This document shows positions 4,629 through 51,368 of a DNA stretch of 51,730 nt, in pieces. The notes beneath the pieces were generated by a model. That model did not search any database. It had not been told where the DNA came from and saw nothing but the letters and a program-made list of their open reading frames with translations. Source of the stretch: Methylobacter sp. (GTDB lineage Bacteria > Pseudomonadota > Gammaproteobacteria > Methylococcales > Methylomonadaceae); the NCBI GenBank assembly GCA_016784875.1, contig JADHTX010000001.1, forward strand, positions 1 through 51,730, written 5' to 3'. The position numbers and the translations under genes were made by a program. Positions within the stretch are counted from its first letter, which is position 1. Each line of letters starts with the position of its first letter.

Positions 4629-5994
4629 AAAATTCTGGATAACGACTCCTCTGATATTGGCTTTAGGCTTATTCGGCGGCTACCGGCTTGCTCATTTGCA
4701 AAACAACGAACCGGCGGTGACTTCAGTAGCCGCCAAGCAACCTTTGTTTTACCGCAGTCCGATGAACCCATCGGTCACTTCGTCCGTACCGGCAAAGGAC
4801 GCAATGGGTATGGATTATGTTCCGGTCTATGCACAAGACAGTAACGGAACGAAAGATGTCATCGGCACGGTCAAAATCGATCCGGTCACTGAGCAGGATA
4901 TCGGCGTACGCACGGCCGTGGCTGCCAGGGAAACGCTCTCGCACATTATCCGGGCGGTTGGCCGGGTGGCGTACGATGAAGAACATTTGGTGCGCCTGCA
5001 TCCGAAAACGGAAGGCTGGATTGAGTTACTGCGGGTAGACAAAACGGGCGAATGGGTCAAAAAGAATGAAGACTTGCTCAGTATTTATTCGCCGCAACTG
5101 GTGACCAGTCAACGGGAATACATTCTGGCCTTAAACAATCTTAAAGTTCTGGAAAAAAGTCCGATCGAGGACATTCGCCGTGGCGCGGAAGAGCTGGTTA
5201 AAAGCTCTCTGGAACGCTTGAAACTGCTGGATGTTCCCGATCACCAGTTACGCGATTTGACCGACAGCCATCAAATTAAAAAAAGCCTGCATATTCATTC
5301 GACGGCGGCGGGGATTATTATGAATATCGGCGTCCGTGAGGGCCAGTATGTGACACCGGCTACCGAACTTTATATGATCGCCGATCTGTCCACTGTCTGG
5401 GTGTATGCCGATATTTACGAATACGAATTGCCCTGGGTTAAGGTCGGCGACTCGGTTGAAATGCGTTTGGCTGCTGTGCCGGGGCGAGTGTTTAAAGGTC
5501 ATCTTGTTTTTATTTATCCTTATGCCGAACCTAAAACGCGGACTATTCAAGTGCGGCTTGTGTTCGATAACGCGGAGCTGTTATTAAAACCTGACCTGTT
5601 CGCCGAAATAACGATTCATGCCGGTAAAAAAGTAGAAGCGGTCACCATTCCCACTGAGGCGGTAATCCGTTCCGGCACCCGCAATCAGGTTTTTGTCGTG
5701 CGCGCTCCCGGTAAATTCGAACCGCGCACGGTCACGCTTGGGCTTTCGTCCAACGGCAAAGTGGCGGTATTGGACGGCGTGAAAGCGGGCGAGCGGGTTG
5801 TCATTTCTGCGCAATTCCTGATTGATTCGGAATCCAAACTGCGCGAGGCTGCGACCAAGATGACCGAACCGGATGAACCTGGCGGTTCGCTGAATATGGA
5901 TACCATGCCAGCTAACCCGCCTCCAGGCAGTAACGCTCAAAGTGTCGATAACGGAACGGATGCCGGTCTGTCGGGAGGTAGTCAAGATGATTAA
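4621..5994 (+). CDS. cusB: CusB-like RND periplasmic adaptor with N-terminal Met-rich metal-binding domain
   Basis: YRSPMNP...[12 protein letters not shown] motif, [24 protein letters not shown]. Confidence 0.88.
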
Positions 5995-8900
5995 AGTCTT
6001 GATCAACGGCTCACTGAAAGACCGGTTTATCGTACTTTTGGGTGCTGTTATCCTGGGGGTGGCGGGTTTATGGTCGTTTATAAACATGCCGATGGATGCG
6101 ATTCCGGATTTGTCCGATGTACAAGTCATCGTCTTTACCAAATATCCGGGGCAGGCGCCGCAAGTGGTCGAAGACCAGGTGACTTATCCGTTGACCACGG
6201 CCATGCTGGCCGTCCCGAAGGCCAAGGTTGTCCGGGGCTATTCTTTTTTCGGATTGTCTTTTGTTTACATCATTTTTGAAGACGGCACCGATATTTACTG
6301 GGCCCGTTCGCGGGTGCTGGAATACTTGAATTACGCCGGAAACCGCTTGCCGCAGGGCATTAACCCGGCATTGGGTCCCGATGCCACCGGCGTCGGCTGG
6401 GTTTATGAATACGCGCTGGTCGATAAAACCGGCAAACATGACTTGGCTCAGCTGCGCTCGATTCAGGATTGGTACCTGCGTTATCCGTTGCAGACGGTGC
6501 CCGGTGTTGCCGAAGTCGCATCGGTAGGCGGTTATGTCAAACAATATCAGATCGAAGTTGACCCGAACGCCCTGCTTGCTTACGGCATTCCGCCGGCAAA
6601 GGTCAAGCAAGCCATTCAACGTTCCAATAGCGATGTCGGCGGGCGCCTGATAGAGATGGCCGAAACCGAATATATGGTGCGCGGCTTGGGTTATATCCGC
6701 AGTATCGATGACATCAACAGCATACCCTTGACCGTTGATGCCAAGGGTACGCCGGTTCGGATACAAGATGTCGCCCATGTTCATATCGGTCCCGAATTAC
6801 GTAGGGGGGTGGTAGAACTGGATGGCGAAGGCGAAGTGGCTGGAGGAGTCGTGATCATGCGTTTTGGTGAAAATGCCAAGGCAACCATTGACGGCGTTAG
6901 AGCTAAGCTGGAGGAACTGAAACAAGGACTGCCGGAAGGCGTCGAAATCGTTCCGGTTTATGATCGGGGGGATTTGATTGAACGCGCCGTCGCTACGCTG
7001 AATGAGGCTTTAATCCAGGAACTCATTATTGTTTGTGCCATGGTGGCCTTGTTCTTGCTGCATCTGCGTTCGTCGCTGGTGATCGTGATTACTTTGCCGT
7101 TGGGTATCCTAATGGCTTTCATCGTTATGAAAATACAGGGACTCAACGCTAATATCATGTCGCTGGGGGGGATTGCGATTGCGATAGGCGACATGGTCGA
7201 CGGCGGTATTGTGATGGTCGAGAACGCCCATAAACATTTGGCCGAAGCCTCTGAACGGAAAAAATCGGAACTGACGCAGCAAGAACGCTGGCAAGCCATC
7301 GCCTCCGCATCGAAGGAAGTGGGGCCGACGTTGTTTTTTTCATTACTGATCGTCACCGTTTCGTTTATCCCCATTTTTGCCATGCAGGCGTAGGAAGGAC
7401 GGCTATTCAGTCCGCTCGCTTTTACCAAATCTTACGCGATGGCGGCTGCGGCCTTGTTAACGATTACTGTCGTGCCGGTATTGATGGGCTATTTTATTCG
7501 CGGCAAAATTATTCCCGAGCATAAGAATCCGGCTAACCGTCTTTTGCATTTCATTCATTCGCCGGTGTTAAAAACGGCTATGCGTCGGCGCCCGGTTACC
7601 TTATTAATAGCCGTAATCTTACTGGCATCCACGGCTTATCCATTCGCTAAAATCGGCAGTGAATTTATGCCGCCGCTGGATGAAGGAGACATTCTTTATA
7701 TGCCGAGTACCTTCCCCGGTATCTCCATCACCAAGGCCAAGGAGTTGCTGCAACAAACCGATAAAATCCTGAAAACTTTTCCCGAAGTGCAACATGTCTT
7801 CGGTAAAGTCGGACGAGCCGACACTGCCACTGACCCGGCGCCGCTGTCGATGACCGAAACCACAGTGCGGCTCGCTCCCAAAGAAGATTGGCCCAATCCT
7901 GATAAAACCACCCGGCAATTGATGACCGAAATGGACCGGGCGATTCGTTTTCCGGGGGTCACTAATGCCTGGACCATGCCGATTAAAACCCGTATCGATA
8001 TGCTCTCAACCGGCATTAAAACGCCGGTCGGCATCAAAGTGTCCGGTCCGGACTTGAATGAATTGCAGCGTTTGGCCAAGTCGATAGAACAGGCGATGAA
8101 AACCTTGCCGGAAACGTTATCCGCTTTCGGCGATCGCGCCGTGGGCGGCTATTATCTCGATTTCGACATCGATAGGGACGATGCCGCCCGCTACGGATTA
8201 ACGGTCGGCGACGTACAGGATGTCATTCAAAGCGCTATCGGCGGCATGAACGTGACCGAAACGGTGGAAGGCCTGGAACGCTATCCGGTCAATCTGCGTT
8301 ACCCGCGTGAACTGCGGGACAATCCGGATAGCCTGAAACGGGTGTTGATTCCGACCCCGACCGGTACGCAAGTTCCGCTGGCTTTGGTGGCTGATCTTAA
8401 TTTGAGACGAGGCCCCCCAGTCATCAAAAGCGAAAATTCCCGGCCCAATGCCTGGATTTATGTCGATATTAAAACTTCCGATATCGGCGGCTTTGTCGAA
8501 CAGGCCAAGAAGACACTGGCGCAACAGGTCGAAATACCCAAAGGCTATACAGTCAGCTGGTCCGGCCAGTTCGAATATATGGAACGAGCGGCAGAGCGAC
8601 TGCGTTTGGTGGTGCCCATGACATTGCTGTTGATCTTTTTACTGTTGTATTTTAATTTTCGAAACCTGGTCGAGCCGGTCATTGTGATGTTGACGGTTCC
8701 TTTCGGCCTGATCGGCGGTATCTGGACGGTTTACTGGTACGGCTTTAATCTGTCGGTGGCTGTCTATGTCGGCTTTATCGCCTTGGCCGGTACAGCGGCC
8801 GAGACAGGTGCCATGGTATTGAATTTTATTGATATAGAAATCGCCAGGCTCAGGGAAGAAAAACAGGCACCGCTAACGGGACAGGAAATCAAGGATGCTG

Positions 8901-9133
8901 TTGAAGCGGCCACGGCTCTACGCGTACGTCCTGTCGCGATTACCGCTTTTACGACCATGCTGGGCTTGGTTCCGATCATGTGGGCCACCGGCTCCGGCGC
9001 CGATGTGACTCAGCGCATCGCCGCGCCGGTGTTGGGCGGTATGCTGACCGTATTGATGCTGAGCCTGCTGGTGTTTCCGGTGATTTACAGTTTGGTATTG
9101 CAGTTTCAGGAACGACATAGGCAGGTGCTTTGA
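5987..9133 (+). pseudogene. cusA: CusA/CzcA heavy-metal RND transporter with a single in-frame TAG at 7391-7393
   Basis: [59 protein letters not shown]. Both track ORFs (5942-7393, 7439-9133) are in the same frame and the gap reads FAMQA*EGRLFSPLAFTKSYAM, the conserved QEGRLF.PLAFTK segment. Confidence 0.9.
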
Positions 9134-31475: not shown

Positions 31476-34400
31476 ATGTACCACGTTCCGCGTACCTGCA
31501 CCGAAAAAAAAATTGATGATGGGGTCGAGAGTCGTCCAATTACCGACTTCAGGGAGAGGGCAGCCTATGTCTTGCTGGGCGAGCCCGGCGCAGGAAAATC
31601 AACCCTATTCGAAGAAGAAGCCGATAACACCGTCAACGGCCTTTGCATTTCCGCCCGCGATTTCATCGTTCTCGACCCAAAGGAATGGCGGGATAAAACC
31701 TTATTTATCGATGGCCTGGATGAAGCAAGAGCGGGCAAAGACGATGCCCGCACGCCGTTAGACGCCATTCGCGGCAGACTCAGTCAATTAGGCTGTAAAT
31801 GTTTCCGTATTTCCTGCCGGGAAGCCGACTGGCTGGGTTCACCCGATGCCAATGATTTGGAAAGAATCAGCCCTAACCAGGCAATAACCATTCTGCATTT
31901 AAACCCGCTTAGCAGTGACGACATTGAGCAGATAGTAAACAACGATCAGCGAGTGCCTGATCCGAACGGCTTTATTGAAAAAGTCGAACAACTCGGCTTG
32001 TCCGGTTTGCTAAACAACCCGCAAACCTTGGATATGCTGATTAATGCTGACATAGGTGGTCATGCGAGGCCGAAAAGTAAACAGGAAGTTTATGAATTGG
32101 CCTGTAAACAACTGGCATCCGAATTTAATGACGATCATGCCGTAACGCAAACAGCCACGATCCCACAATTAATGGAAGCGGCAGGTTTTTTGTGCGCGGT
32201 ACAACTTATCGCAAATATTTCCGGCTTCACTGAAGGCCAAGCCGGGGAAGGCCGGTTGAGCCTAAAAGAATTGACCATTCCGAATGACTTACCCATACAC
32301 GCTGCCTTAAAAACGCGGTTATTTAACAAGGTCGGAAATAATGAGTTCAGCTACATACATCGCAGTGTGGCGGAATATCTGGCGGCACAATTCATAGCGG
32401 GAAAAATCAATCAAGGCTTATTGATTAACAGGGTACTGGCGCTAACCAGTGGTTTTGATGGTGGTATAGTCGCTGCCTTGCGCGGGTTAATGGCTTGGTT
32501 GAGTGTGCATTCCGAGCAAGCGCGGGAGCGTTTGATTGAGATTGATCCTGTCGGCATCATCGTCAATGGCGATGCGTTGCTTTTTCCCAGACAAGCTAAA
32601 TCCCAATTATTTCTCGCTCTGATTAGGGAGGCAGAAACTACCGCTTTCCCTAATCGGGATTGGCATACCACAGCATTCGCAGCAATCACCACTAGGGACA
32701 TGGCGAATGAGCTAATCGAGATACTGAACAGCCAGAGTCGTAATGATGGTGAGCAATTCCTTTTGTACTGTTTATTAAAAGGTTTGTCCTGTTCCGAGTC
32801 GATAGCGGAAATCAAAGTATCGTTGCTAGCGATTATTCGTGACAACTCCTATTGGGAGGCAATACGTGGTAATGCACTCAATGCATTTCTTCATCAATAT
32901 CCCGAAGACCTGGATAGCTTGTTGCTATTGGCCGAGGATATTCGACAAGGCAAAGTTGAGGAAACAGAAAATGGCCTTATGGAAACATTGCTGGACAGGT
33001 TATTTCCAGCAAAAATTGGTGCTTCCAACCTACTCAAATACCTAATACCGCCAAAAAATAATCGCGTCATTCTTTATCATTATTTTTGGCGGACGATTCT
33101 ATCAGAACGTTTAACAGATATTGATCTTGCCGTAATCCTCGACCAGCTTTTTGAACTGGGATCAGTTTTCTGGGAAGGCGTGCATGAGGATTTTATTGTC
33201 GAGACGGTGGGACAATTATTAATACGGGGTTTGCAGGTTCATGGATTAAACATTAGCTCTGAGCGACTCTATCGTTGGCTGTCCATCGGTATAGATCAGT
33301 ATGATGATTGTAGGCTCACACTAGAACAGCGTCAGCAAATCGCTAACTGGATTGACTCCCATCCTGATTGTTACCTAACAGCTATCCGTGAAGGATTAAA
33401 GCAAATAAAAGACTTTGAAAATATCAATTGGGAAATTCATAAAATATTTTCACGATTACACGGCGCCACTCCGCCCAATAACCTTGCGCAGTGGTGGCTT
33501 AATCAAGCGCTATCGGAAACCGACATCAAATTGAGCTGTGCTTATTTTGAACAGGCATTCGTAACACTGTACGACCAACAGAACGATAGTGACTTATCCC
33601 TGGATTATTTTGTTGATTGGTTAGAAGATCATCCCGAATTCCGTGACACTTATCAGAACTTGACTTATTGCGTTATTCCAGACTGGCGACTTAAACGTGC
33701 TAACTCAACACAAAAATGGGCGAACCAACGTGATGAAGAACAACGCAAAAAACTGAGCTACTTACATGAACATCAAGCGCAAATTGCCGACGGCAGCGCA
33801 CCTCCGCAACTCTTTCATCAGCTGGCGATAGCGTTTAATCACCGTGTCCAAATCAGCGGCAAATCACGCGAAGAACGTTTATCTGAGTTTCTGAATGGCG
33901 ATGAAATACTTATAGCCTCTGCAAAAGCTGGTTTCCGAAAAATACTACAACGAACCGACTTGCCAACGTCTCATGAGATATACAAGTCGGCGGCAAAAAG
34001 CGGTGAGTACCATTACATCCGCCTACCTTTTCTGGTTTGCATGGATACGCTTTATCAGGAAAATCCTGCCATGCTCGAAATACTAAGTGATGAGTTACTT
34101 AGCAAAGCCGTGGCTTTTTGTTATGCGGAAGGTAATTCTCATGAAGCTTGGCTTAAATCGCTTTGTCAGTCGAAGCCGGAATTAGTCTCACGCTTATTTA
34201 TCGATTATGTCGTCGCGCTTTTAGCTGCTAAAAGTCAATTTATTCATGGACTGCATAATCTGGCTTATGACCAAGATTTCCAGAAAATTACCCAGCTGAC
34301 GGTTATGCCTTTGCTCAATAAATATCCGGTTAGAGGTTATAAAAATCATATTACCCATCTCCATTACCTGCTTGACGCCGCTATTGCAAACATTGATAAG

Positions 34401-35477
34401 CAGGAGTTGTTAACGCTGATTGAAAAAAAGCTGGCTTGTAAAGGTATGGACTTAGCTCAACACATTTACTGGCTTGCTGCCGGTCTGGTCATAGCGCCCG
34501 GAGTATATGAGGCCAAAATCAAACAAACTCTTTTAGGAAAAAGCGAACGTATCAATCGTTTGTCCGATTTTTTGTGCCCAAGTTTTGTATCAAAAATGTA
34601 CGACAGATACGACTTTCCTGCATCAACTAAAGGAATGTTGATCGAATTATTCGCACCACGCTGCAATCCTGAATGGCCTAGAGGCGGTGGCATTGTGACA
34701 CGCGCAATGGAAGAAAGGGACTATGTTCGATTTTTACTCAACAGCCTTGCTTACAATCCCGGCGAGGACAGTGCAGTAATTTTGGCCGATTTACTGAAAC
34801 AATCTGAATTAAGCGCTTGGCATACACAAATTCAAAACGCCCAACAAACCCAACAACTAAGCCGCAGAGAAGCATTGTTCAAACATCCCAATGCTATGCA
34901 GGTTATAAATACGCTCGGCAATTCAAAACCGGCTAATGTCGCTGATTTAGCGGCACTGACTGTTGATTGCTTGGAGCAACTTGCAGCAGAAATGCATGGC
35001 AGCAATACCGATAGCTATAAACATTTTTGGAACTTAAAACCCGACAGCCCCAAAGACGAAAATGAATGCCGTAATTATTCAGTTGTAAGACTCAAACCAT
35101 TGCTTTTGCCGTATGGTGTCAGCGTCGAACTTGAAGCTTATCAAGCCAAACAGAAACGTGCAGATATGACAGTATCATTTACTGGCGAAGGTAAAACATT
35201 CTACCTTCCTATCGAAATTAAACGCGATTATAACGATAAATTATGGAAAACCATCCACGAACAACTGATACCTTTTTACACCATTGCACCGGAAACCGAA
35301 GGCCGAGGCCTATTTTTAGTCATTTGGTTTAATTATGCAAAAATACCTACCCATCCTAAAGGCCTGCCTCCGCCAAAGTCAGCGGAACATTTAGCCGCGA
35401 TGCTTAAAGATACAATGACGCAGCAGGAACAAAAACTGATTAATATTTTTGTACTTGATGTTTCAAAAAAACACTAA
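31476..35477 (+). CDS. Large NACHT/STAND-type NTPase with C-terminal PD-(D/E)xK-like domain
   Basis: VLLGEPGAGKST, LFIDGLDE, RISCR, NNPQTL, YIHRSVAEYLAA; long Leu-rich helical middle; C-terminal KRADM...LPIEIK. Confidence 0.75.
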   Translation: MYHVPRTCTEKKIDDGVESRPITDFRERAAYVLLGEPGAGKSTLFEEEADNTVNGLCISARDFIVLDPKEWRDKTLFIDGLDEARAGKDDARTPLDAIRGRLSQLGCKCFRISCREADWLGSPDANDLERISPNQAITILHLNPLSSDDIEQIVNNDQRVPDPNGFIEKVEQLGLSGLLNNPQTLDMLINADIGGHARPKSKQEVYELACKQLASEFNDDHAVTQTATIPQLMEAAGFLCAVQLIANISGFTEGQAGEGRLSLKELTIPNDLPIHAALKTRLFNKVGNNEFSYIHRSVAEYLAAQFIAGKINQGLLINRVLALTSGFDGGIVAALRGLMAWLSVHSEQARERLIEIDPVGIIVNGDALLFPRQAKSQLFLALIREAETTAFPNRDWHTTAFAAITTRDMANELIEILNSQSRNDGEQFLLYCLLKGLSCSESIAEIKVSLLAIIRDNSYWEAIRGNALNAFLHQYPEDLDSLLLLAEDIRQGKVEETENGLMETLLDRLFPAKIGASNLLKYLIPPKNNRVILYHYFWRTILSERLTDIDLAVILDQLFELGSVFWEGVHEDFIVETVGQLLIRGLQVHGLNISSERLYRWLSIGIDQYDDCRLTLEQRQQIANWIDSHPDCYLTAIREGLKQIKDFENINWEIHKIFSRLHGATPPNNLAQWWLNQALSETDIKLSCAYFEQAFVTLYDQQNDSDLSLDYFVDWLEDHPEFRDTYQNLTYCVIPDWRLKRANSTQKWANQRDEEQRKKLSYLHEHQAQIADGSAPPQLFHQLAIAFNHRVQISGKSREERLSEFLNGDEILIASAKAGFRKILQRTDLPTSHEIYKSAAKSGEYHYIRLPFLVCMDTLYQENPAMLEILSDELLSKAVAFCYAEGNSHEAWLKSLCQSKPELVSRLFIDYVVALLAAKSQFIHGLHNLAYDQDFQKITQLTVMPLLNKYPVRGYKNHITHLHYLLDAAIANIDKQELLTLIEKKLACKGMDLAQHIYWLAAGLVIAPGVYEAKIKQTLLGKSERINRLSDFLCPSFVSKMYDRYDFPASTKGMLIELFAPRCNPEWPRGGGIVTRAMEERDYVRFLLNSLAYNPGEDSAVILADLLKQSELSAWHTQIQNAQQTQQLSRREALFKHPNAMQVINTLGNSKPANVADLAALTVDCLEQLAAEMHGSNTDSYKHFWNLKPDSPKDENECRNYSVVRLKPLLLPYGVSVELEAYQAKQKRADMTVSFTGEGKTFYLPIEIKRDYNDKLWKTIHEQLIPFYTIAPETEGRGLFLVIWFNYAKIPTHPKGLPPPKSAEHLAAMLKDTMTQQEQKLINIFVLDVSKKH

Positions 35478-39802: not shown

Positions 39803-42145
39803 ATGGTTATTTCCGCTCTGTCATTTTTAGCCGGGTTGTTGCTGGTTCAACAGTTTTCGGTATTGCCGGATGTTAAATGGCTGATAGTCGGTGCGGTAGT
39901 GGTCGGCAGTATTGCATGGTTGCGTTATTGGCGATGCCTGTTCTTTTCGGTTGGCGTTTTGTGGGCGATAGTGTTTGCCATGCATCGATTGTCCAGCCAG
40001 TTGCCTGAGTCATTAGAGGGTATTGAGATTCAGGTGAGCGGCGTCATAGCCGATTTGCCGGTGCAAGACGAAAAGCGAGCCCGTTTTGATTTTATCCCCA
40101 GGGATGGGGTGTATGCCGCAAGCCCGTCGGGAACGGGTGCGGCGATCCCCAGGGATAGTGCATATGGGAGAGCTGCTAATGAGCCTGCTCAACACTTACC
40201 CGCCAAACTGCGATTAAGCTGGTATTACCCTGATCAGCAAATCAAGGCAGGCCAGCATTGGACTTTTACCGTCAAACTAAAGCGCATCCACGGCACTATG
40301 AATCCCGGCGGCTTTGATTATGAACGCTGGCTATTTACCGAAGGCATCGGTGCGACAGGCTATGTTCGGCCTAACCATAAGCCGGTTTTACTGGGTCGCG
40401 ATTCGGCCTGGAGCAGTATTTCCGTCTGGCGGCAGAGTATCGCCGATCGGCTTTCAAGCCTATTAGGCAATAGCCCAAGTCTTGGGCTGATAAAGGCGCT
40501 GACCATTGGCGACGCAAGCCGCATCTCGCAAAAGCAATGGGAGATTTTTCGCAAAACCGGCACGGTTCATTTGATGGTGATTTCCGGCTTGCATATCGGC
40601 CTTGTTGCCGGGCTGGTGTATTTTTTGGTGCTTAAATTGTGGGCGTGGACGGGTTTGTTGGCATGGTCGCCGCAAAGAGTCTCGGCAGTGGTGGCGGTGT
40701 TGGCTGCGATTTTTTATTCAGGATTGGCCGGTTTTTCCGTGCCTACTCAGCGCTCGGTGGTTATGTTATCTATCGCCATGACGGCGATTATTCTGCAACG
40801 CAACTCCCGCCCCCTTAATACCTTAGCCATCGCCTTGTTTGCCGTATTGATATTCGATCCGTTAGCGGTGCTGGCGGCAGGATTCTGGCTGTCGTTTCTC
40901 GCCGTAAGTGTCATCGTTTATGCCGTTTCCGGGCGCTTGGGCAAGGCCGGGTATTTATGGAGTGCCTTGAAAATACATTGGGTTACCTCGGTGGGTTTAT
41001 CGCCTTTGTTGCTGCTGTTTTTCCAGCAGGTTTCGCTGATTGCGCCGCTGGCTAACTTGTTTGCCGTGCCGGTCATCAGCCTGCTGGTAGTACCGTTGTC
41101 GTTGCTGGCGGTCATGGTCATGTTTGTATCAGCAACGCTGGCGGACAAGTTGTTCTTTTTGGTCGATCGCCTGCTGCAAGGTTTATGGTGGTTTTTGGAA
41201 TATTTTGCGGAACTCCCGATGGCATCGATAACGCATGAACCACCTTCGTATTGGGCGTTATTTTTCGCTGTGCCGGGGATGATGCTGTTGCTTGCACCGG
41301 TAGGCATTCCGGCGCGTTGGCTAAGCTTGGTGATGTTTTTACCGTTGCTGTTTACCGAGGTAAAGCGACCTGAAATCGGCGACATCAATATGACCTTACT
41401 GGATGTCGGACAAGGTTTATCGGCGGTTGTGCAAACTGCCGAACATCTGCTGGTTTACGATACTGGTGCAAAATTTTCGGCTGACAGCGATATGGGGCAA
41501 CGGGTAGTGCTGCCATTTTTGCACTTGCAAGGTCTAAACAAAATTGACAGCCTGATTATCAGTCATGGCGACAACGATCATATCGGCGGCGCGGCATCGT
41601 TAATGCACGGCATGGATACCGTGCAAGTATTAACCAGTGTCCCGCAAAAGTTGATTGAGTACGCGCCAATCGAGTGTATAGCCGGGCAATCGTGGCTATG
41701 GGATGAGGTTGAATTCACTATGTTGGGGCCAGCACAGGCATTTAACTCAAAAAACGACAGCTCCTGCGTGCTGAAAATTCAGTCGAAACACGGCACGCTA
41801 TTATTGACCGGCGACATTGAAGCGACAGCAGAATCCTGGCTGGTTGATACTTACGGCGAGGCGTTAAAAGCCGAGGTGTTAGTCGCCCCGCATCATGGCA
41901 GCAAGACTTCATCGACAATGAGTTTTTTGCGCGCCGTACAGCCGGAGTATGTATTGATTCCGGCAGGTTACCGCAGTCAATTCGGTCATCCGCATAAAGA
42001 TGTTTTGGCGCGCTATCGGCGAATCAATGCGACATGGCTAAATAACGCCGACAGCGGGGCGATTTTTGTCAATGTTATCAATAATGCTTGGGCAGTGCAG
42101 GGGATGCGGCAGATGGAAAGTAAGTATTGGAATTTTAAAAAATAA
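39803..42145 (+). CDS. comEC: DNA internalization competence protein ComEC/Rec2
   Basis: NPGGFDYE, TGT.HL..ISGLHIG, LDVGQG, SHGDNDH.GG, LTGDIE, PHHGSKTSS; carries an in-frame insertion at about 40094-40190. Confidence 0.95.
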   Translation: MVISALSFLAGLLLVQQFSVLPDVKWLIVGAVVVGSIAWLRYWRCLFFSVGVLWAIVFAMHRLSSQLPESLEGIEIQVSGVIADLPVQDEKRARFDFIPRDGVYAASPSGTGAAIPRDSAYGRAANEPAQHLPAKLRLSWYYPDQQIKAGQHWTFTVKLKRIHGTMNPGGFDYERWLFTEGIGATGYVRPNHKPVLLGRDSAWSSISVWRQSIADRLSSLLGNSPSLGLIKALTIGDASRISQKQWEIFRKTGTVHLMVISGLHIGLVAGLVYFLVLKLWAWTGLLAWSPQRVSAVVAVLAAIFYSGLAGFSVPTQRSVVMLSIAMTAIILQRNSRPLNTLAIALFAVLIFDPLAVLAAGFWLSFLAVSVIVYAVSGRLGKAGYLWSALKIHWVTSVGLSPLLLLFFQQVSLIAPLANLFAVPVISLLVVPLSLLAVMVMFVSATLADKLFFLVDRLLQGLWWFLEYFAELPMASITHEPPSYWALFFAVPGMMLLLAPVGIPARWLSLVMFLPLLFTEVKRPEIGDINMTLLDVGQGLSAVVQTAEHLLVYDTGAKFSADSDMGQRVVLPFLHLQGLNKIDSLIISHGDNDHIGGAASLMHGMDTVQVLTSVPQKLIEYAPIECIAGQSWLWDEVEFTMLGPAQAFNSKNDSSCVLKIQSKHGTLLLTGDIEATAESWLVDTYGEALKAEVLVAPHHGSKTSSTMSFLRAVQPEYVLIPAGYRSQFGHPHKDVLARYRRINATWLNNADSGAIFVNVINNAWAVQGMRQMESKYWNFKK
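40094..40144 (+). repeat. 51-bp in-frame coding double-hairpin element, copy 1 (in comEC)
   Basis: ATCCCCAGGGATGGGGTGTATGCCGCAAGCCCGTCGGGAACGGGTGCGGCG; 42/51 identical to 47471-47521; first 12 bp repeated directly after it (40145-40156). Confidence 0.88.
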
Positions 42146-44117: not shown

Positions 44118-44124
44118 TGAACGG

Positions 44125-44396
44125 ATGATTTCCTATGATGACAATAAACGCCAAATTAATTTGAAAAAGCATGGCATTGATTTAGCGGAATGTGTCAGCA
44201 TCTTCGATCACTTAATGATTACCAAAGAAGACGCGCGTGAAAATTATGGCGAACAGCGCTTACAAAGTTTAGGATTATTGAATTCCGTTGTCGTTTTTAT
44301 GGTTTGGATTGATAAGGTTGAGCTCCACATTTAATTTAAGTTCGTGAGGCTACTAAATATGAGCAAAAATACTACTACGCCAACATTGGCTACTGA
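44125..44396 (+). pseudogene. BrnT family toxin, frameshifted and with nonsense codon
   Basis: YDDNKRQINLKKHGIDL...D.RENYGE.R. The C-terminus continues in another frame as APHLI*VREATKYEQKYYYANIGY (TAA 44337-44339 at the Ser of IS.R.A). Confidence 0.8.
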
Positions 44397-44640
44397 AGAA
44401 CCGCCTTATAACCCTGACGATCTTGATTCAGTAGAAAACTTTTGGGAAGGTGCCCGTATTGAACATCAAGGTAAAATTATCGGCGTAAGTCATCGTATAA
44501 AAGAATGTGAATTAGCAAAGGTTCAAGTCACTTTAACCTTATCACCGCAGGTGGTCGATTTTTTTAAAAACACAGGCAAAGACTGGCAAACGCGAATGGA
44601 TGAGGCGTTGATTGAATATATTGAAACGCATCATGCTTAA
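44359..44640 (+). CDS. BrnA family antitoxin
   Basis: KVQVTLTLSPQVVDFFKNTGKDWQTRMDEAL ribbon-helix-helix motif; ATG 44359. Confidence 0.85.
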   Translation: MSKNTTTPTLATEEPPYNPDDLDSVENFWEGARIEHQGKIIGVSHRIKECELAKVQVTLTLSPQVVDFFKNTGKDWQTRMDEALIEYIETHHA

Positions 44641-44641
44641 T

Positions 44642-44848
44642 ATGAAATATAAAATGATTATTTACTGGAGCGAAGAAGATCAAGCTTATATCGCCGAAGT
44701 GCCGGAATTAGCCGGTTGTATGGCCGATGGGAGCAGTTATCAAGAAGCGGTTAGCAATGCTGAACGGGTTATTGCTGAATGGATAGAGACTGCCGTAGAA
44801 CTGGGTCGGCATGTTCCCGAGCCTAAAGGGCGATTGTTATATGCCTAA
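44642..44848 (+). CDS. Short HicB family antitoxin (no hicA adjacent)
   Basis: Y..IIYWSEEDQAYIAEVPELAGCMADG.SY.EA..N....I.EWIETA.ELGR..PEP. Confidence 0.85.
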   Translation: MKYKMIIYWSEEDQAYIAEVPELAGCMADGSSYQEAVSNAERVIAEWIETAVELGRHVPEPKGRLLYA

Positions 44849-44878
44849 GTAAGCAATGTTTTTAAAATAAGGCCGTTC

Positions 44879-45493
44879 ATGGGTAATTCGAATGAAACAA
44901 GCAGTGCTGATTTCAATAGCATCAAAACAGGATGGGTTCTAGCAATACTTGTTGTAATAGGGTTGGTTATTGTCGGTTTCTATTTCTTTAATTTCAATTC
45001 TCATATACTAAAAAACGAGGGTTGGTGGAAAGTTTTTCAAAACCTGTCCGCAGATACTGGAAATTGAGGAACATTTGGCGATTATGTTGGCGGCATACTT
45101 AATCCGGTTATTGCTGGATTTGCATTTTATTTGATAGCCAAGACTTATGAGCTTCAAAAAAGCGAGTCGACAAAAACTATAAAAATAGCTGCACTGACTG
45201 CGCTTCTTAATTCGAATTTAACAAAAATTGGTTTGCTGAGAACCGAAAAAGTCGAACTATTAGGCCAAATACCGCAAGAACATCAACAGGATATGCTCCG
45301 TGATATAGAAAATGACAAATATGACAAATCCGAAAAAAATCAATTTGATAAAGAAATATCGACAGGACGTAATAGGCTTAATTATCGCGAATATTACGAT
45401 CTAATAACAAGAGTGCCCCAAATAGATCGGGAAATTGAGATATTAAGGATTAAGAATTTTAAGCTAGAAGAAAAAATTACGTTTTTTCTTTAA
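44879..45493 (+). pseudogene. Membrane protein with WGxFGDYxGG motif, interrupted by in-frame TGA (45065-45067)
   Basis: Two track ORFs in the same frame, joined by DTGN*GTFGDYVGGILNPVIAGFAFYLIAKTY. Confidence 0.75.
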
Positions 45494-45557
45494 AAATAGC
45501 CCGACCTACAGTACTTTGGCAGAGATATAGACTTATGATCAATCCAAGGAAAATGCA

Positions 45558-45809
45558 ATGTTAGAAACCACAGCGACCAAGTTAATTAAGAACTTACCCA
45601 AGGAAATAGAACCTTGTTTTAATAGCCATGAAGCACTGCACGTTAAACAAGATGATGGTAAAGATTTTGTGATTATCAACGCTGAAGATTGGCGGGCGAT
45701 TGAGGAAACCCTGTTCCTTAATCAAATTCCCGGCATGGTTGCCAGTATTCATGATGCGGCTAACGAATCATTGGACAAAGGTGTTCGTCTACAGGATTTA
45801 GACTGGTGA
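45558..45809 (+). CDS. Phd/YefM family antitoxin
   Basis: V.INAEDWRAIEETLFL..IPGM..SI, ends LDW overlapping yoeB start. Confidence 0.85.
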   Translation: MLETTATKLIKNLPKEIEPCFNSHEALHVKQDDGKDFVIINAEDWRAIEETLFLNQIPGMVASIHDAANESLDKGVRLQDLDW

Positions 45810-46070
45810 CTTGGCAAGTTACTTTAAGTCGGCAGGCGGAAAAGGACGCAAAAAAAATTGCTCAAGCAGGCTTGAAACCGCAAGCCGGAAAATTATTGGA
45901 GCTTTTGACTGAAAACCCATTTACCACACCGCCACCTTATGAAAAATTAGTGGGCAATCTGCAAGGCTTTTATTCCAGACGTATCACTATTCAACATCGC
46001 TTAAGTTTATCGTATTGTTGAAATAGAAAAAGTGATTCATGTGTTGCGGATGTGGACGCATTATGAATAA
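45806..46070 (+). pseudogene. Txe/YoeB family toxin with +1 frameshift at about 46004
   Basis: NPF..PPPYEKLVGNLQGFYSRRITIQHRL, then an extra A; the shifted frame reads VYRIVEIEKVIHVLRMWTHYE*, the canonical C-terminus. Confidence 0.88.
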
Positions 46071-46112
46071 AACAGCGCGTTAAGCGATATTAACAAAACA
46101 ATTGGAACTCTT

Positions 46113-46862
46113 ATGCTCAGCATTAAAAACTTAACCGTCAACGTAAACGACAAACAAATTCTTAAAGGCATTAACCTTGAGATTAAGGCCGGTGAAATCC
46201 ACGCGATTATGGGGCCGAACGGTTCCGGTAAAAGCACCTTGTCGCATGTGCTGTCGGGCAAGGGCGGTTATACCGTGACCGGCGGTTCGGCGACTTATCA
46301 GGGTAAGGATTTGCTGGAGATGGCGCCTGAAATCAGGGCGCGTGAGGGCGTGTTTTTGGCCTTCCAGTATCCGGTTGAAATCCCCGGCGTCAGTAATATT
46401 TATTTATTGAAAGCGGCGCTGAACTCGATACGCAAACACCACGGGCAGCCTGAAGTCGATGCGATGGATTTTTTAACGCTGGTTAAAGAAAAAGTGCGCT
46501 TGCTGGAAATGGATGAGAAGTTTTTGTACCGCGCGGTGAACGAAGGTTTCTCCGGCGGCGAAAAGAAACGCAACGAAATCCTGCAAATGGCTATTTTGGA
46601 ACCCAAGCTGTGTATTATGGATGAAACCGATTCCGGCCTGGACATCGACGCGTTGAAAATCGTCTCGGAAGGCGTTAATTCCTTGCGTTCGCCGGAACGT
46701 TCGTTTGTGATGGTCACCCATTACCAGCGCTTGCTGGACTATATCAAACCGGACTTTGTCCATGTGTTGGCGCATGGTCAAATCGTCAAATCCGGCGGTG
46801 CGGAGCTGGCATTGGAGCTGGAAGAAAAAGGCTACAGTTGGGTTGAAGAGGCGGTAGCGTAA
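46113..46862 (+). CDS. sufC: Fe-S cluster assembly ATPase SufC
   Basis: MGPNGSGKST, FLAFQYPVEIPGV, NEGFSGGEKKRNE, DETDSGLDIDA. Confidence 0.98.
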   Translation: MLSIKNLTVNVNDKQILKGINLEIKAGEIHAIMGPNGSGKSTLSHVLSGKGGYTVTGGSATYQGKDLLEMAPEIRAREGVFLAFQYPVEIPGVSNIYLLKAALNSIRKHHGQPEVDAMDFLTLVKEKVRLLEMDEKFLYRAVNEGFSGGEKKRNEILQMAILEPKLCIMDETDSGLDIDALKIVSEGVNSLRSPERSFVMVTHYQRLLDYIKPDFVHVLAHGQIVKSGGAELALELEEKGYSWVEEAVA

Positions 46863-48235
46863 TGAATACGGCAACAGCAAGCCGTTATACGGCTGAATAC
46901 CAAACCATAGCGTCTGTCTTGCCTGGGCAAAACTTGCCTTGGTTGCAGACCTTAAGAAGCGAGGCTCTGGAGCAGTTTTCTGCGCAAGGATTTCCATCGC
47001 CGCGCGAGGAAGAATGGCGCTATACCAATGTGTCCGGCATTGAAAAGAAACTGTTTTCGCCGTCGGTCGATTTAACTACTATTGATATAAACGCAGACTG
47101 GCTAAAAGCCTATCGATTGGAAGATGCTTGGGTTTTGGTTTTGGTGAACGGCCATTTTTCAGCCGAGCTTTCGGTCTTAGAGGGTCTGCCCGAAGCCGTT
47201 ACTGTGATGGGTATGGCTGAAGCGTTGGCAAAGCAGCCGGATACAGTGGAAAAATATTTAGGGAAGGGTGCCGATCAATCTGAGCACAGTTTTATTGCTT
47301 TCAATACGGCATGGTTTACCGATGGCCTGTTTGTGCATGTGCCTGCCAAACTGGTTTTAGACAGGCCGATACAGTTGCTGCACATTGTGACCGGCAGCGA
47401 TGCAATGGCTACGACCCGCAATATTGTTATTGCTGACGCTTTGGCCGAAGCTAAAGTCATAGAGACGTTTATCTCCAGGGATGGAGTGTATGCCGCGAAT
47501 CTGTCAGGAACAGATGCGGCGCTGGGACAAGACAGCGCTTACTTAACCGCCGCAGTCACCGAAGTTTTCGTCGGGAAAAACGCCGATGTGACCTTGTACA
47601 AACTGCAAAGCGAGTCGGAAAAAGCCTACCATTTTGGCGGCTGCTACGTTAAACAGGCGAGAGATGCCCGCTTTACCCATCACAATTTCGCTTTTGGCGG
47701 TTTGCTGGCGCGCAGTGATATTCATGTCGATCTCGATCATGCGTCTGAGTGCGAACTGAACGGTTTGTACTTAGGTATCAAGCGTCAGCATCTCGACAAC
47801 CACACCCGAATCAACCATTTAAAGCCTCATGCGATCAGCCGCGAGCTGTATAAAGGCGTATTGGACGATAGAGCCAGAGGTGTGTTTCAGGGGAGGGTGA
47901 TTGTGTCTGAGGATGCGCAGAAAACCGATTCGCAAATGAATAACCGTAATCTGCTGTTATCGGACGATGCCGAAGCGGATACCAAGCCGCAGCTGGAAAT
48001 TTATGCCGATGATGTGAAATGTGCTCATGGCGTGACGGTGGGGCAGCTGGACGAAAAATCCATTTTCTATCTGCAATCACGTTGCGTAGATGAAGAGACA
48101 GCTCGGAACATGCTGACCTTTGCCTTCGCCAACGAAATGGTCGATAAGGTCAAGATTAAAAGCTTACACGATAAGGTTTTAGAACAGGTGTTGGTGCGTT
48201 TCCCGCAACAAGGCGTGAACAAAGAATGGCTATAA
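46862..48235 (+). CDS. sufD: Fe-S cluster assembly protein SufD
   Basis: EEWRYT, AQKTD, NLLLS..AE.DTKPQLEIYADDVKCAHG.TVG; contains a 17-aa insertion. Confidence 0.96.
   Translation: MNTATASRYTAEYQTIASVLPGQNLPWLQTLRSEALEQFSAQGFPSPREEEWRYTNVSGIEKKLFSPSVDLTTIDINADWLKAYRLEDAWVLVLVNGHFSAELSVLEGLPEAVTVMGMAEALAKQPDTVEKYLGKGADQSEHSFIAFNTAWFTDGLFVHVPAKLVLDRPIQLLHIVTGSDAMATTRNIVIADALAEAKVIETFISRDGVYAANLSGTDAALGQDSAYLTAAVTEVFVGKNADVTLYKLQSESEKAYHFGGCYVKQARDARFTHHNFAFGGLLARSDIHVDLDHASECELNGLYLGIKRQHLDNHTRINHLKPHAISRELYKGVLDDRARGVFQGRVIVSEDAQKTDSQMNNRNLLLSDDAEADTKPQLEIYADDVKCAHGVTVGQLDEKSIFYLQSRCVDEETARNMLTFAFANEMVDKVKIKSLHDKVLEQVLVRFPQQGVNKEWL
47471..47521 (+). repeat. 51-bp in-frame coding double-hairpin element, copy 2 (in sufD)
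   Basis: ATCTCCAGGGATGGAGTGTATGCCGCGAATCTGTCAGGAACAGATGCGGCG encodes ISRDGVYAANLSGTDAA. Confidence 0.88.
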
Positions 48236-50555: not shown

Positions 50556-51368
50556 ATGTCGTCGCAAAAAAACGCCGGTGCCGCGCCTGTTCCTGACAAG
50601 CTTATAACATACACGCCATCAAAACCGGCGGTACTTTATCAAGGGCAGGGCGATAGCCTGCCTTTTCAGCAGCTGGCAGACAGGTTGGGCGTTCCTTTGC
50701 ATCAATCCCCAAGCGATACTCAGGAAGAATTCTTTTTAACCTGGCGCGATGGTTGCTTAAAGCTGCTCGACCGGGAGCTGCTTAAAAAAGGCGGCATGAC
50801 TGTCGAAATAGAGCCGCGCAACGGAGAGCAGCGTTCATGGCCTGCACCCAAAGACGGCGCGTTGGCGCAGGCTTTGGGACGAAAAACCAGAACCGTTGTC
50901 GATGCGACTACCGGCTGGGGTCAGGACAGTCTGCACATCTTCCGCATGGGCTACGAACTGCTGTGTATCGAACGATCTCCGGTTATGGCGGAATTGCTGG
51001 CAGACGGTTTTGTTCGACTGGCGCAACTTGACTGGATGCAGCGGCTTAATCTTGAGTCGCCCCGATTGCTACAGGGCAATGCCATTGACTTGTTAGCCAA
51101 TCTGGAAACTCAGCCTGATTGTATTTATCTTGATCCGATGTTTCCGCCTAAGCGCAAAAAATCCGCATTAGCTAAAAAATCCATGATGGTGTTGCGCGAT
51201 TTGCTGGGCGACGACCCGGACAAGGAGCAACTTTTTGAGGCCGCGATAAATGCAGCCGGAAAACGGGTGGTGGTGAAAAGCCCCGATTATGCCGAACCTT
51301 TGGGCGGTAAGCCTAGCCAAAGTTTCCAGGGCAAGTTGCTGCGGTATGATGTTTATTTGAAAGGTTAA
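50556..51368 (+). CDS. rsmJ: 16S rRNA m2G1516 methyltransferase RsmJ-like
   Basis: VVDATTGWGQD, ERSP, YLDPMFP, KRVVVK.P, RYDVY. Confidence 0.85.
   Translation: MSSQKNAGAAPVPDKLITYTPSKPAVLYQGQGDSLPFQQLADRLGVPLHQSPSDTQEEFFLTWRDGCLKLLDRELLKKGGMTVEIEPRNGEQRSWPAPKDGALAQALGRKTRTVVDATTGWGQDSLHIFRMGYELLCIERSPVMAELLADGFVRLAQLDWMQRLNLESPRLLQGNAIDLLANLETQPDCIYLDPMFPPKRKKSALAKKSMMVLRDLLGDDPDKEQLFEAAINAAGKRVVVKSPDYAEPLGGKPSQSFQGKLLRYDVYLKG

What the first reader, a model, noticed from the sequence alone, without database searches (positions are those of the whole stretch)
40091..40195. Mobile 51-bp element inserted in-frame into unrelated proteins (comEC copy)
Seen: comEC 40094-40144 and sufD 47471-47521 are 42/51 identical with no gaps. 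Both are on the sense strand, start on a codon boundary after TTT, are exactly 17 codons, and encode I[PS]RDGVYAA[SN][PL]SGT[GD]AA. In comEC the first 12 bp (ATCCCCAGGGAT) recur right after the element, followed by about 40 bp that also look inserted, suggesting tandem or nested insertion. ComEC and SufD are not homologous. Known analogy: Rickettsia palindromic elements insert in-frame in coding genes. Inference: a family of protein-coding mobile palindromes adding peptide segments to core proteins, which I do not recognise as a named family.
Basis: partly seen in the sequence, partly recalled or inferred. Interest (0 to 1): 0.9.

Follow-up and report, generated by a model that had tools for sequence, protein, structure and literature searches.

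The report
Self-targeting mobile hairpin inside methanotroph proteins
A methane-eating bacterium (Methylobacter-like) carries about forty copies of a gene-less 51-base double-hairpin repeat that sit, without breaking the reading frame, inside unrelated housekeeping genes and are absent from the same spots in many relatives, so it is likely a tiny selfish mobile element that would add 17-residue loops to proteins, much like the known palindromes of Rickettsia, but with a definable target site and an enzyme still unfound.

Summary
Confirmed and extended. The two copies are 42/51 identical; the genome holds 45 strong matches, 0 in a reversed control, mostly in frame in housekeeping genes on either strand, including four units in the only assembled valS. 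Orthologues show clean filled and empty sites with no target duplication. The unit folds into two covarying hairpins. New: the target is WT|NNNG (G at +4 in 55/68 sites; 17/18 held-out), which the element's own start recreates; arrays have 51-bp spacing and decay towards the 3' end (24 vs 3). Only 27 bp after the comEC copy are inserted, not about 52. The family was found only in the window's own family; 52-53-bp sisters sit at stop codons or in REP loops elsewhere. No linked transposase was found; an HUH-type enzyme acting in trans is inferred. Translation is untested. It works like Rickettsia RPEs but is not one; I found no published description. The scan noted similar, different elements in other genomes, not this family.

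The parts
40094..40144 (+). Intact 51-bp unit in comEC (hairpin 1 at 40096-40109 with a GGGA loop, 5-nt linker, bulged hairpin 2 at 40115-40143 with a CGGGA loop); codons 98-114
   Evidence: (-17.8 kcal/mol as DNA, z -4.0)
40145..40171 (+). 3'-decayed remnant of an older second unit (9 codons), head-to-tail with the first
   Evidence: 19/27 identical to the first unit; length fixed by the 12-residue native linker of orthologues
40092..40093 (+). Left half of the target (TT)
   Evidence: T at -1 in 70 of 74 and 19 of 19 sites
40172..40175 (+). Right half of the target (NNNG) at the start of the native linker
   Evidence: G at +4 in 55 of 68 and 17 of 18 sites
39803..42145 (+). Host gene comEC (780 aa, open frame); the insert lies in the DUF4131 domain
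   Evidence: single assembled copy
47471..47521 (+). Intact 51-bp unit in sufD, residues 204-220, preceded by TT and followed by CTGG
   Evidence: (z -4.9)
46862..48235 (+). Host gene sufD (457 aa, open frame, predicted fold intact)
50579..50629 (-). Third, 5'-decayed unit lying antisense and in frame near the start of the SAM-methyltransferase gene; intact copies occupy this site in relatives (18 arrays)
   Evidence: (36.7 bits)
50556..51368 (+). Host gene, putative SAM-dependent methyltransferase (PF04445)

Best explanation
It is a gene-less 51-bp double-hairpin repeat that sits in frame inside many unrelated genes at a WT|NNNG site with no target duplication, and it is likely a non-autonomous mobile element moved in trans, probably as folded single-stranded DNA by an HUH-type strand-transfer enzyme that I did not find. 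Shown: about 40 copies here; filled and empty orthologous sites; two covarying hairpins with GGA-ending loops; no terminal inverted repeat; the target motif; exact 51-bp tandem spacing; decay towards the 3' end of arrays; local clustering; no bias to the sense strand or to a replication strand. Inferred: because the unit begins ATCG, a T-preceded resident copy recreates the target at its own 5' junction, so new copies would enter in front of old ones, often copied from the resident or a neighbouring unit (adjacent units share private variants). Inferred: a length of 17 codons with no stop in most frames lets insertions in surface loops and near termini survive, so the peptide is a tolerated by-product and not a function. 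My odds: mobile selfish element 0.9; structure-recognising single-strand mechanism with self-targeting 0.65; enzyme of the HUH superfamily 0.45.
For: Copy number and control. Hosts are unrelated housekeeping genes (valS, uvrD, prlC, purH, recO, rapA and others); valS is the only assembled copy, keeps its HMGH and KMSKS motifs and carries four units. Filled/empty sites: SufD 43 empty, 12 filled at one position, 7 at a second position 12 bp away, of 62 distinct rows; ComEC 0 to 3 units. Structure: 91% of cells paired, 14 of 16 pairs with two-sided changes, 0 of 500 shuffles as high, slid controls 25-48%. Target: T at -1 in 64/68, W at -2 in 62/68, G at +4 in 55/68 (p 4e-14 even against a G frequency of 0.36); held-out metagenome sites 19/19 and 17/18. 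Spacing 51 in 75 of 76 junctions. First copy closer to the consensus at 24 of 31 multi-copy sites, last at 3; remnants 3' at 8 of 74 sites, 5' at 0. Adjacent units share a non-consensus start in 22 of 28 arrays. Clustering: 11 pairs within 12 kb against 2.0 expected. A G-T mismatch is kept at one stem position only (145 of 224 distinct copies), like the irregularities that ssDNA transposases read (PMC8266576 passages). Insert in a beta-helix turn, model pLDDT 90.3, TM 0.82-0.91 to E. coli SufD. A sister unit shows a recent burst of 121 near-identical copies and also inserts without duplication.
Against: No enzyme gene is flanked by the unit: 0 of 68 Y1 loci from 11 genomes (60 of the 84 matches in the ten other genomes came as loci), 0 of 19 GIY-YIG loci, and none of the IS91, IS110, RT or DUF559 loci. 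IS91-type genes were found in only 1 of 5 genomes tested. No lagging-strand bias (12 vs 12), whereas IS608 and ISDra2 show one (bioRxiv 10.1101/279083, start of abstract). There is no GTAG tag and the hairpins lie 1-2 nt from the ends, unlike REP and (recalled) IS608 ends. Many sites are shared across genera and the SufD tree is too weak to force many events (2 changes forced per site), so part of the patchiness could be old insertions, loss, or gene exchange. Covariation could come from template switching rather than selection. No RNA contig covers a unit; no protein evidence.
Confidence: 0.6

Rival explanations
1. The same mobile unit, but integrated by a site-specific recombinase (tyrosine or IS110-type DEDD enzyme) that exchanges strands over the first few bases shared by the target (NNNG) and the unit's start (ATCG).
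For: The target is two-sided around the cut; the unit's start resembles the right flank consensus (A at +1, G at +4, C at +5). In 11 of 22 arrays whose first three bases deviate from ATC, the deviation matches the right flank (rows not independent), as a short heteroduplex would give. No replication-strand bias.
Against: IS110 genes in only 2 of 5 genomes and none next to a unit; absent from G000 (80.65% complete). The unit has no inverted binding sites at its ends; its conserved features are single-strand hairpins. Tyrosine integrases were not searched as a family.
Confidence: 0.2
2. The unit spreads through an RNA copy, by target-primed reverse transcription from a T-rich nick.
For: T-rich 5' flank and decay at the far (3') end fit priming from a T-rich end. 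RT genes occur in 4 of 5 genomes tested.
Against: No target duplication and no tail; G-T pairs do not exceed A-C mismatches outside one position (112 vs 105); one high-copy genome (G011, 99% complete) had no RT match; the one RT near a unit (L444, about 1.4 kb away) looks like a broken group II intron; the G at +4 is unexplained.
Confidence: 0.08
3. The unit is kept by the host as an RNA signal: both loops end in GGA and hairpin 1 resembles a CsrA/RsmA binding site (resemblance recalled; ANGGA motif seen in PMC9788540 passages).
For: csrA is in the genome; loops are NGGA in 213 of 224 copies for hairpin 1; first copies at orthologous sites show 52 two-sided compensated states against 35 one-sided breaks.
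Against: 15 of 31 intragenic loci are antisense, where the mRNA would show UCC loops; no strand-wide G-U excess; sites are freely empty in close relatives; hosts share no pathway. This could at most be a later side effect.
Confidence: 0.07
4. There is no current mobility: a few ancient insertions were inherited, duplicated by slippage, polished by template switching and shuffled among species by homologous gene exchange.
For: Site-private variants are shared across species (9 of 12 sufD site-1 copies share one stem variant); 46 of 67 held-out arrays fell at known sites; template switching can create compensated stems (PMC8794818, search listing and start of abstract only).
Against: 46 of the 74 site clusters were seen once and 19 more were new; slippage alone predicts no 5'-to-3' polarity (24 vs 3); it still needs a mobile origin. 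It probably contributes to the covariation and to some arrays.
Confidence: 0.05

Closest known systems
Rickettsia palindromic elements (RPE; Ogata et al. 2000, 2002, seen only as summarised in passages of PMC10969869, PMC2229807, PMC3733652)
   Same: Small non-coding-capacity hairpin repeat, inserted in frame in unrelated conserved genes, sometimes twice per gene; mobiliser unknown; predicted compatible with the fold.
   Different: 51 bp against 105-146 bp; two separate hairpins and no terminal inverted repeat (RPE: 12-bp TIR); free-living methanotroph; defined two-sided target; polar head-to-tail arrays; almost all copies are intragenic (about half for RPE). No sequence comparison with RPE was run.
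Betaproteobacterial repeat element (BRE; PMC3110155, passages and supplement passages)
   Same: Multi-hairpin repeat, variable-number tandem copies at one locus, some inside genes, no known transposase.
   Different: About 90 bp, usually intergenic, T-tract ends; the listed BRE sequences show no likeness to this unit by eye (not aligned).
GTAG and CGTC REPs with TnpA-REP/RAYT (PMC3733652, PMC8266576, bioRxiv 10.1101/279083; passages)
   Same: Short stem-loops with a conserved irregularity, read as single-stranded DNA; intragenic copies known in some species; sisters of this unit nest inside such REPs.
   Different: No GTAG or CGTC tag; cleavage context is T|NNNG, not CT; no REPtron found; REPs are mainly extragenic and form inverted dimers, this unit forms direct arrays.
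IS200/IS605 and IS91 ends and their non-autonomous derivatives (IS608 model from PMC8266576 passages; IS91 target rules recalled)
   Same: No target duplication, subterminal hairpins, target tetranucleotide resembling the element's own terminal tetranucleotide (on the minus strand CNNN and CGAT).
   Different: No autonomous partner found; no replication-strand bias; far smaller; hairpin-to-end spacing differs.

Membership tests
Protein-coding palindromic elements (RPE-like behaviour) | Dispersed repeat inserted in frame in unrelated conserved genes, absent from orthologues | tested here: met
Protein-coding palindromic elements (RPE-like behaviour) | Stable, conserved hairpin structure | tested here: met
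Protein-coding palindromic elements (RPE-like behaviour) | Insert compatible with the host fold (surface loop) | tested here: met
   SufD only: predicted turn between strands 196-205 and 228-237; other hosts not modelled
Protein-coding palindromic elements (RPE-like behaviour) | Host protein made with the extra peptide and active | not testable with these tools
   RNA contigs did not cover a unit; only inferred from single-copy valS
RPE family proper | 105-146 bp long stem-loop with terminal inverted repeats | tested here: not met
   51 bp, two separate hairpins, ends do not pair (RPE values)
RPE family proper | Sequence homology to RPE-1 to RPE-10 | not tested
   no RPE sequence was fetched
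Bacterial MITE | Terminal inverted repeats | tested here: not met
Bacterial MITE | Target site duplication (often TA) | tested here: not met
   filled and empty sites differ by exactly 51 bp; partial 2-6 base matches in a minority
GTAG/CGTC REP with RAYT | GTAG or CGTC tag at the foot of the hairpin | tested here: not met
   alignment A1
GTAG/CGTC REP with RAYT | Cognate tnpA-REP flanked by the repeat | tested here: not met
   0 of 68 Y1 loci from 11 genomes; 24 matches had no locus and were not examined; the Y1 genes seen carry other repeats
HUH-mobilised non-autonomous element (IS200/605- or IS91-like) | No target duplication and short-motif target choice | tested here: met
HUH-mobilised non-autonomous element (IS200/605- or IS91-like) | Autonomous partner with the same ends | tested here: inconclusive
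   none found; genomes are drafts and the enzyme may act unlinked or be lost
HUH-mobilised non-autonomous element (IS200/605- or IS91-like) | Orientation bias to the lagging-strand template (IS608, ISDra2) | tested here: not met
   12 vs 12 of 24 loci on contigs with a clear skew
BRE | About 90-bp BRE sequence, mostly intergenic | tested here: not met
   length and location differ; sequences compared by eye only
Any Rfam family (including CsrB/Rsm RNAs) | Match at the family's threshold | tested here: not met
   one chance match elsewhere, E 0.52; 0 matches in 12 loci

The most novel reading that the evidence does not exclude
The unit is the minimal member of an undescribed superfamily of about 50-bp GGA-loop double-hairpin mobile modules of Gammaproteobacteria, moved by a not yet identified enzyme that cuts at WT|NNNG and re-targets its own 5' junction, building polar arrays; the length of each sub-family decides its niche (51 bp inside proteins, 52-53 bp at stop codons or inside REP loops), which makes the 51-bp form a standing, precisely reversible source of new protein loops in methanotroph core enzymes and a tractable model for how RPE-like elements move.
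Probability: 0.35. Interest if true: 0.8.

Novelty: new variant of a known kind. Interest (0 to 1): 0.57.

Why it matters
How Rickettsia-type protein-coding palindromes move has been open since 2000, partly because their hosts are obligate intracellular and their targets are undefined. Here the target motif, the polarity of arrays and many filled/empty pairs are defined, and copies are present in cultured strains (for example Methylobacter tundripaludum SV96 comEC, locus L079; OWC-G53F, locus L070; Methyloglobulus morosus KoM1 sufD, locus L098), so mobility, the enzyme and the cost of the peptide can be tested. It also matters for annotation: core Methylobacter proteins carry 17-68 foreign residues that can mislead alignments, trees and start-site calls.

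Tried and rejected
Rfam: no match. Plasmids and viral contigs: no match. Mobiliser by linkage: Y1/RAYT in 11 genomes, GIY-YIG in 6, IS91 (65), IS110 (85), RT (86), DUF559 (88), each checked for a flanking unit: none; one unit lies about 600 bp from a Y1 gene but inside the neighbouring permease gene (L175). Pfam scan of 150 of 310 neighbour-protein clusters (only those up to 420 aa, 150 of 246 such) and 34 host ORFs: no transposase or integrase. Lagging-strand preference: none. RNA-level role: no sense bias, no G-U excess. Transcription or splicing of the unit: two RNA contig sets did not cover any unit, so no verdict; joints listed there come from other organisms or repeats. First SufD model was useless (pLDDT 42.8). 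The SufD tree (quick method, 62 rows; 18 of 96 loci not parsed, 16 duplicates dropped) needs 8 and 6 changes for the two sites but strong branches force only 2 each, so I do not claim a number of events. Frame use is only partly explained by the target: observed +0 21, -0 15, -1 15, +1 3, +2 1, -2 1 against 17, 12, 7, 11, 5, 5 expected (p 2e-4; 18 of 74 sites near ORF edges left out); the rest may be selection on the peptide, untested. Literature: searches found no description of this family (for I saw 40 of 103 listings, all unrelated by title); Ogata 2002 and a Shewanella mobile-element paper were not held; subscription journals are mostly outside the library, and supplements of PMC3733652 (intragenic REP lists) were not read and could bear on prior description.

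Full report
Observation. The two stretches are as described: 42 of 51 identical, ungapped, sense, after TTT, 17 codons, in genes with no shared family. The window is contig C165 of a 2.97-Mb, 80.65% complete genome whose SufD is closest (84-88%) to Methylobacter records. Contigs of a different sample span both copies with no difference. The stretch after the comEC copy is a 27-bp decayed second unit (19/27) followed by native linker. A third, decayed copy lies antisense at 50579-50629.

The family in this genome. A matrix grown from the two copies gives 45 matches at 22 bits or more and none at 14 or more in the reversed genome; three of the 45 are sister types. A profile search gives 36 loci at 25 bits or more, 32 after dropping four sister-type loci. 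Of the 36, 16 are sense and 15 antisense within long ORFs; 5 were called intergenic, at least two of them wrongly (they lie in the PP-loop and DUF447 ORFs). Long ORFs cover 79% of the genome, so the unit is not depleted from coding DNA. Hosts include valS, uvrD, prlC, purH, an ornithine/aspartate carbamoyltransferase, recO, rapA, a type II/IV secretion ATPase, aminotransferases and a histidine kinase. valS is the only assembled copy (next hit 24.7%), keeps HMGH and KMSKS, and holds one plus three units; that it is translated with them is inference.

Filled and empty sites. ComEC: among 17 same-genus rows covering the site, 12 carry one to three recognisable units, 2 carry short remnants and 3 are empty; 11 rows from other families lack the insert. 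SufD: of 96 loci, 78 parsed and 62 were distinct; 43 are empty, 12 are filled after ETF and 7 are filled four codons further on, so one loop was hit at two positions. Intact single inserts add exactly 17 residues, with no duplication. The tree is weak: 8 and 6 changes, only 2 each forced by strong branches. In a good model (pLDDT 90.3, pTM 0.91) the insert extends the turn between strands 196-205 and 228-237, and the fold matches E. coli SufD (TM 0.82-0.91).

Structure. Both window copies fold into two hairpins on either strand (z -4.0 to -5.4). Across 35 copies 91.1% of cells pair, 14 of 16 pairs show two-sided changes, no shuffle reaches this and slid controls pair 25-48%; the structure was derived from these sequences, which favours it in the slid control. 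Both loops end in GGA. One G-T mismatch is the majority state (145 of 224 distinct copies), while elsewhere G-T and A-C are equal (112, 105). At orthologous sites whole stems are swapped in compensated form (52 two-sided against 35 breaking states at 17 sites); replacement by fresh copies, selection or template switching could each do this.

Target and arrays. From all loci fetched I collected 175 arrays (248 copies) in 74 site clusters (clustering is approximate and at least three clusters are the same gene). T precedes the unit at 70 of 74. Leaving out 6 sites whose right flank is a remnant, T at -1 is 64/68, A or T at -2 is 62/68 and G at +4 of the right flank is 55/68 (p 9e-24 against genome G, 4e-14 against 0.36); the G holds in every frame class. 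A held-out metagenome set (80 of 130 or more loci fetched) gave 67 arrays, 46 at known sites and 19 new sites with T at -1 in 19/19 and G at +4 in 17/18. The unit starts ATCG, so a resident copy recreates WT|NNNG at its 5' junction. Tandem spacing is 51 in 75 of 76 junctions; the first copy scores better at 24 of 31 multi-copy sites, the last at 3, 4 tie; remnants lie 3' at 8 sites and 5' at none. Adjacent units share a non-consensus start in 22 of 28 arrays, and loci cluster (6 pairs within 3 kb against 0.85; 11 within 12 kb against 2.0), pointing to local copying. There is no replication-strand bias (12 vs 12). Frame use is uneven and only partly follows from the target and from a stop created in one antisense frame.

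Range and sisters. A strict pattern is found in 13 of 62 family genomes, 7 of 7 in the genus, and 0 of 88 genomes of other families of the order. It was not found in plasmids or viral contigs. The genome holds a second 51-bp in-frame family (15 loci) and longer intergenic relatives, some nested in CGTC-type repeats. A loosened pattern hits 8 of 300 other gammaproteobacterial genomes, control 1. In G158 and G340 close sisters with 52-53-bp spacing begin at the stop codon of a gene in 10 of 11 loci. G126 has 121 near-identical copies of a mostly 52-bp sister, mainly inserted without duplication in the loop of a GTAG-type repeat.

Mechanism. No duplication, no terminal inverted repeats, subterminal hairpins with a kept mismatch and a short target resembling the element's own end are the marks of single-strand HUH transposition (PMC8266576 passages; IS91 rules recalled). 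I commit to that at 0.45 for the enzyme class and 0.9 for mobility. Against it, no enzyme gene is flanked by the unit in any search and the strand bias known for IS608 is missing. Recombinase, reverse-transcription, CsrA-signal and no-longer-mobile readings are set out as rivals.

Comparison and novelty. It works like the Rickettsia palindromic elements but fails their size and terminal-repeat features, fails the MITE and REP tests and differs from BRE (all read as passages, the primary RPE papers not seen). No Rfam match and no description in eight searches. The scan has noted in-frame hairpin elements of other families in other genomes (unchecked AI notes, not support) and nothing on this family or genome. 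Verdict: real; a new variant of a known kind, whose added value is a defined target, self-targeting polar arrays and cultured carriers. Interest 0.57.

Noticed in passing
G000 contigs C30:2626-2827, C174:9568-9769, C146:860-961, C148:1474-1574, C269:5324-5417 (loci L163, L168, L170): A second 51-bp double-hairpin family with the same first-loop motif but a different linker, also in frame and in 3'-decaying arrays (15 loci, 4 sense, 11 antisense); its flanks do not show the T at -1, so its target differs.
   Followed up: partly
G000 C33:2536-2876, C13:1345-1470, C255:28050-28210, C14:3750-3905, C266:2450-2550; L225, L563: Longer intergenic relatives with GGA loops, nested in one another and inside CGTC-type and other repeats; in purK and an ABC ATPase, two types are nested in frame.
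   Followed up: partly
G126 (loci L305-L353): Recent burst of 121 near-identical sister units (spacing 49, 51, 52, 110) mostly inside a GTAG-type repeat, surrounded by runs of 7-base repeats; best genome for finding the enzyme.
   Followed up: partly
G158 and G340 (loci L276, L277, L285, L289, L290, L292, L293, L296, L298, L302): Sister units with 52-53-bp spacing that begin inside the stop codon (T then AG or AA) of unrelated genes, 10 of 11 loci.
   Followed up: partly
L178 (G000 C162:3457-6648): A RAYT-like gene flanked by its own two-hairpin repeat whose loops also end in GGA on one strand; different sequence from the unit.
   Followed up: no
window 5942-9133: A CusA/AcrB-type efflux gene is split into two ORFs (profile positions 3-453 and 471-1020 of PF00873).
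   Followed up: no
window 31476-35477: A 1333-aa ORF with no Pfam match, next to an AAA_14/DUF4143 ATPase gene.
   Followed up: no
window 44118-46112: About 2 kb between sufB and sufC with only one ORF of 100 aa or more (45131-45493, no Pfam match); relatives have variable spacing here.
   Followed up: no
L493:2100-2825, L473:1947-2570: Uma2-family (PF05685) putative nuclease genes lie at or carry the unit in frame in metagenome loci; probably just hosts.
   Followed up: no
L444:775-2090: A broken group II intron-like RT about 1.4 kb from a unit that lies in an ATPase gene.
   Followed up: partly
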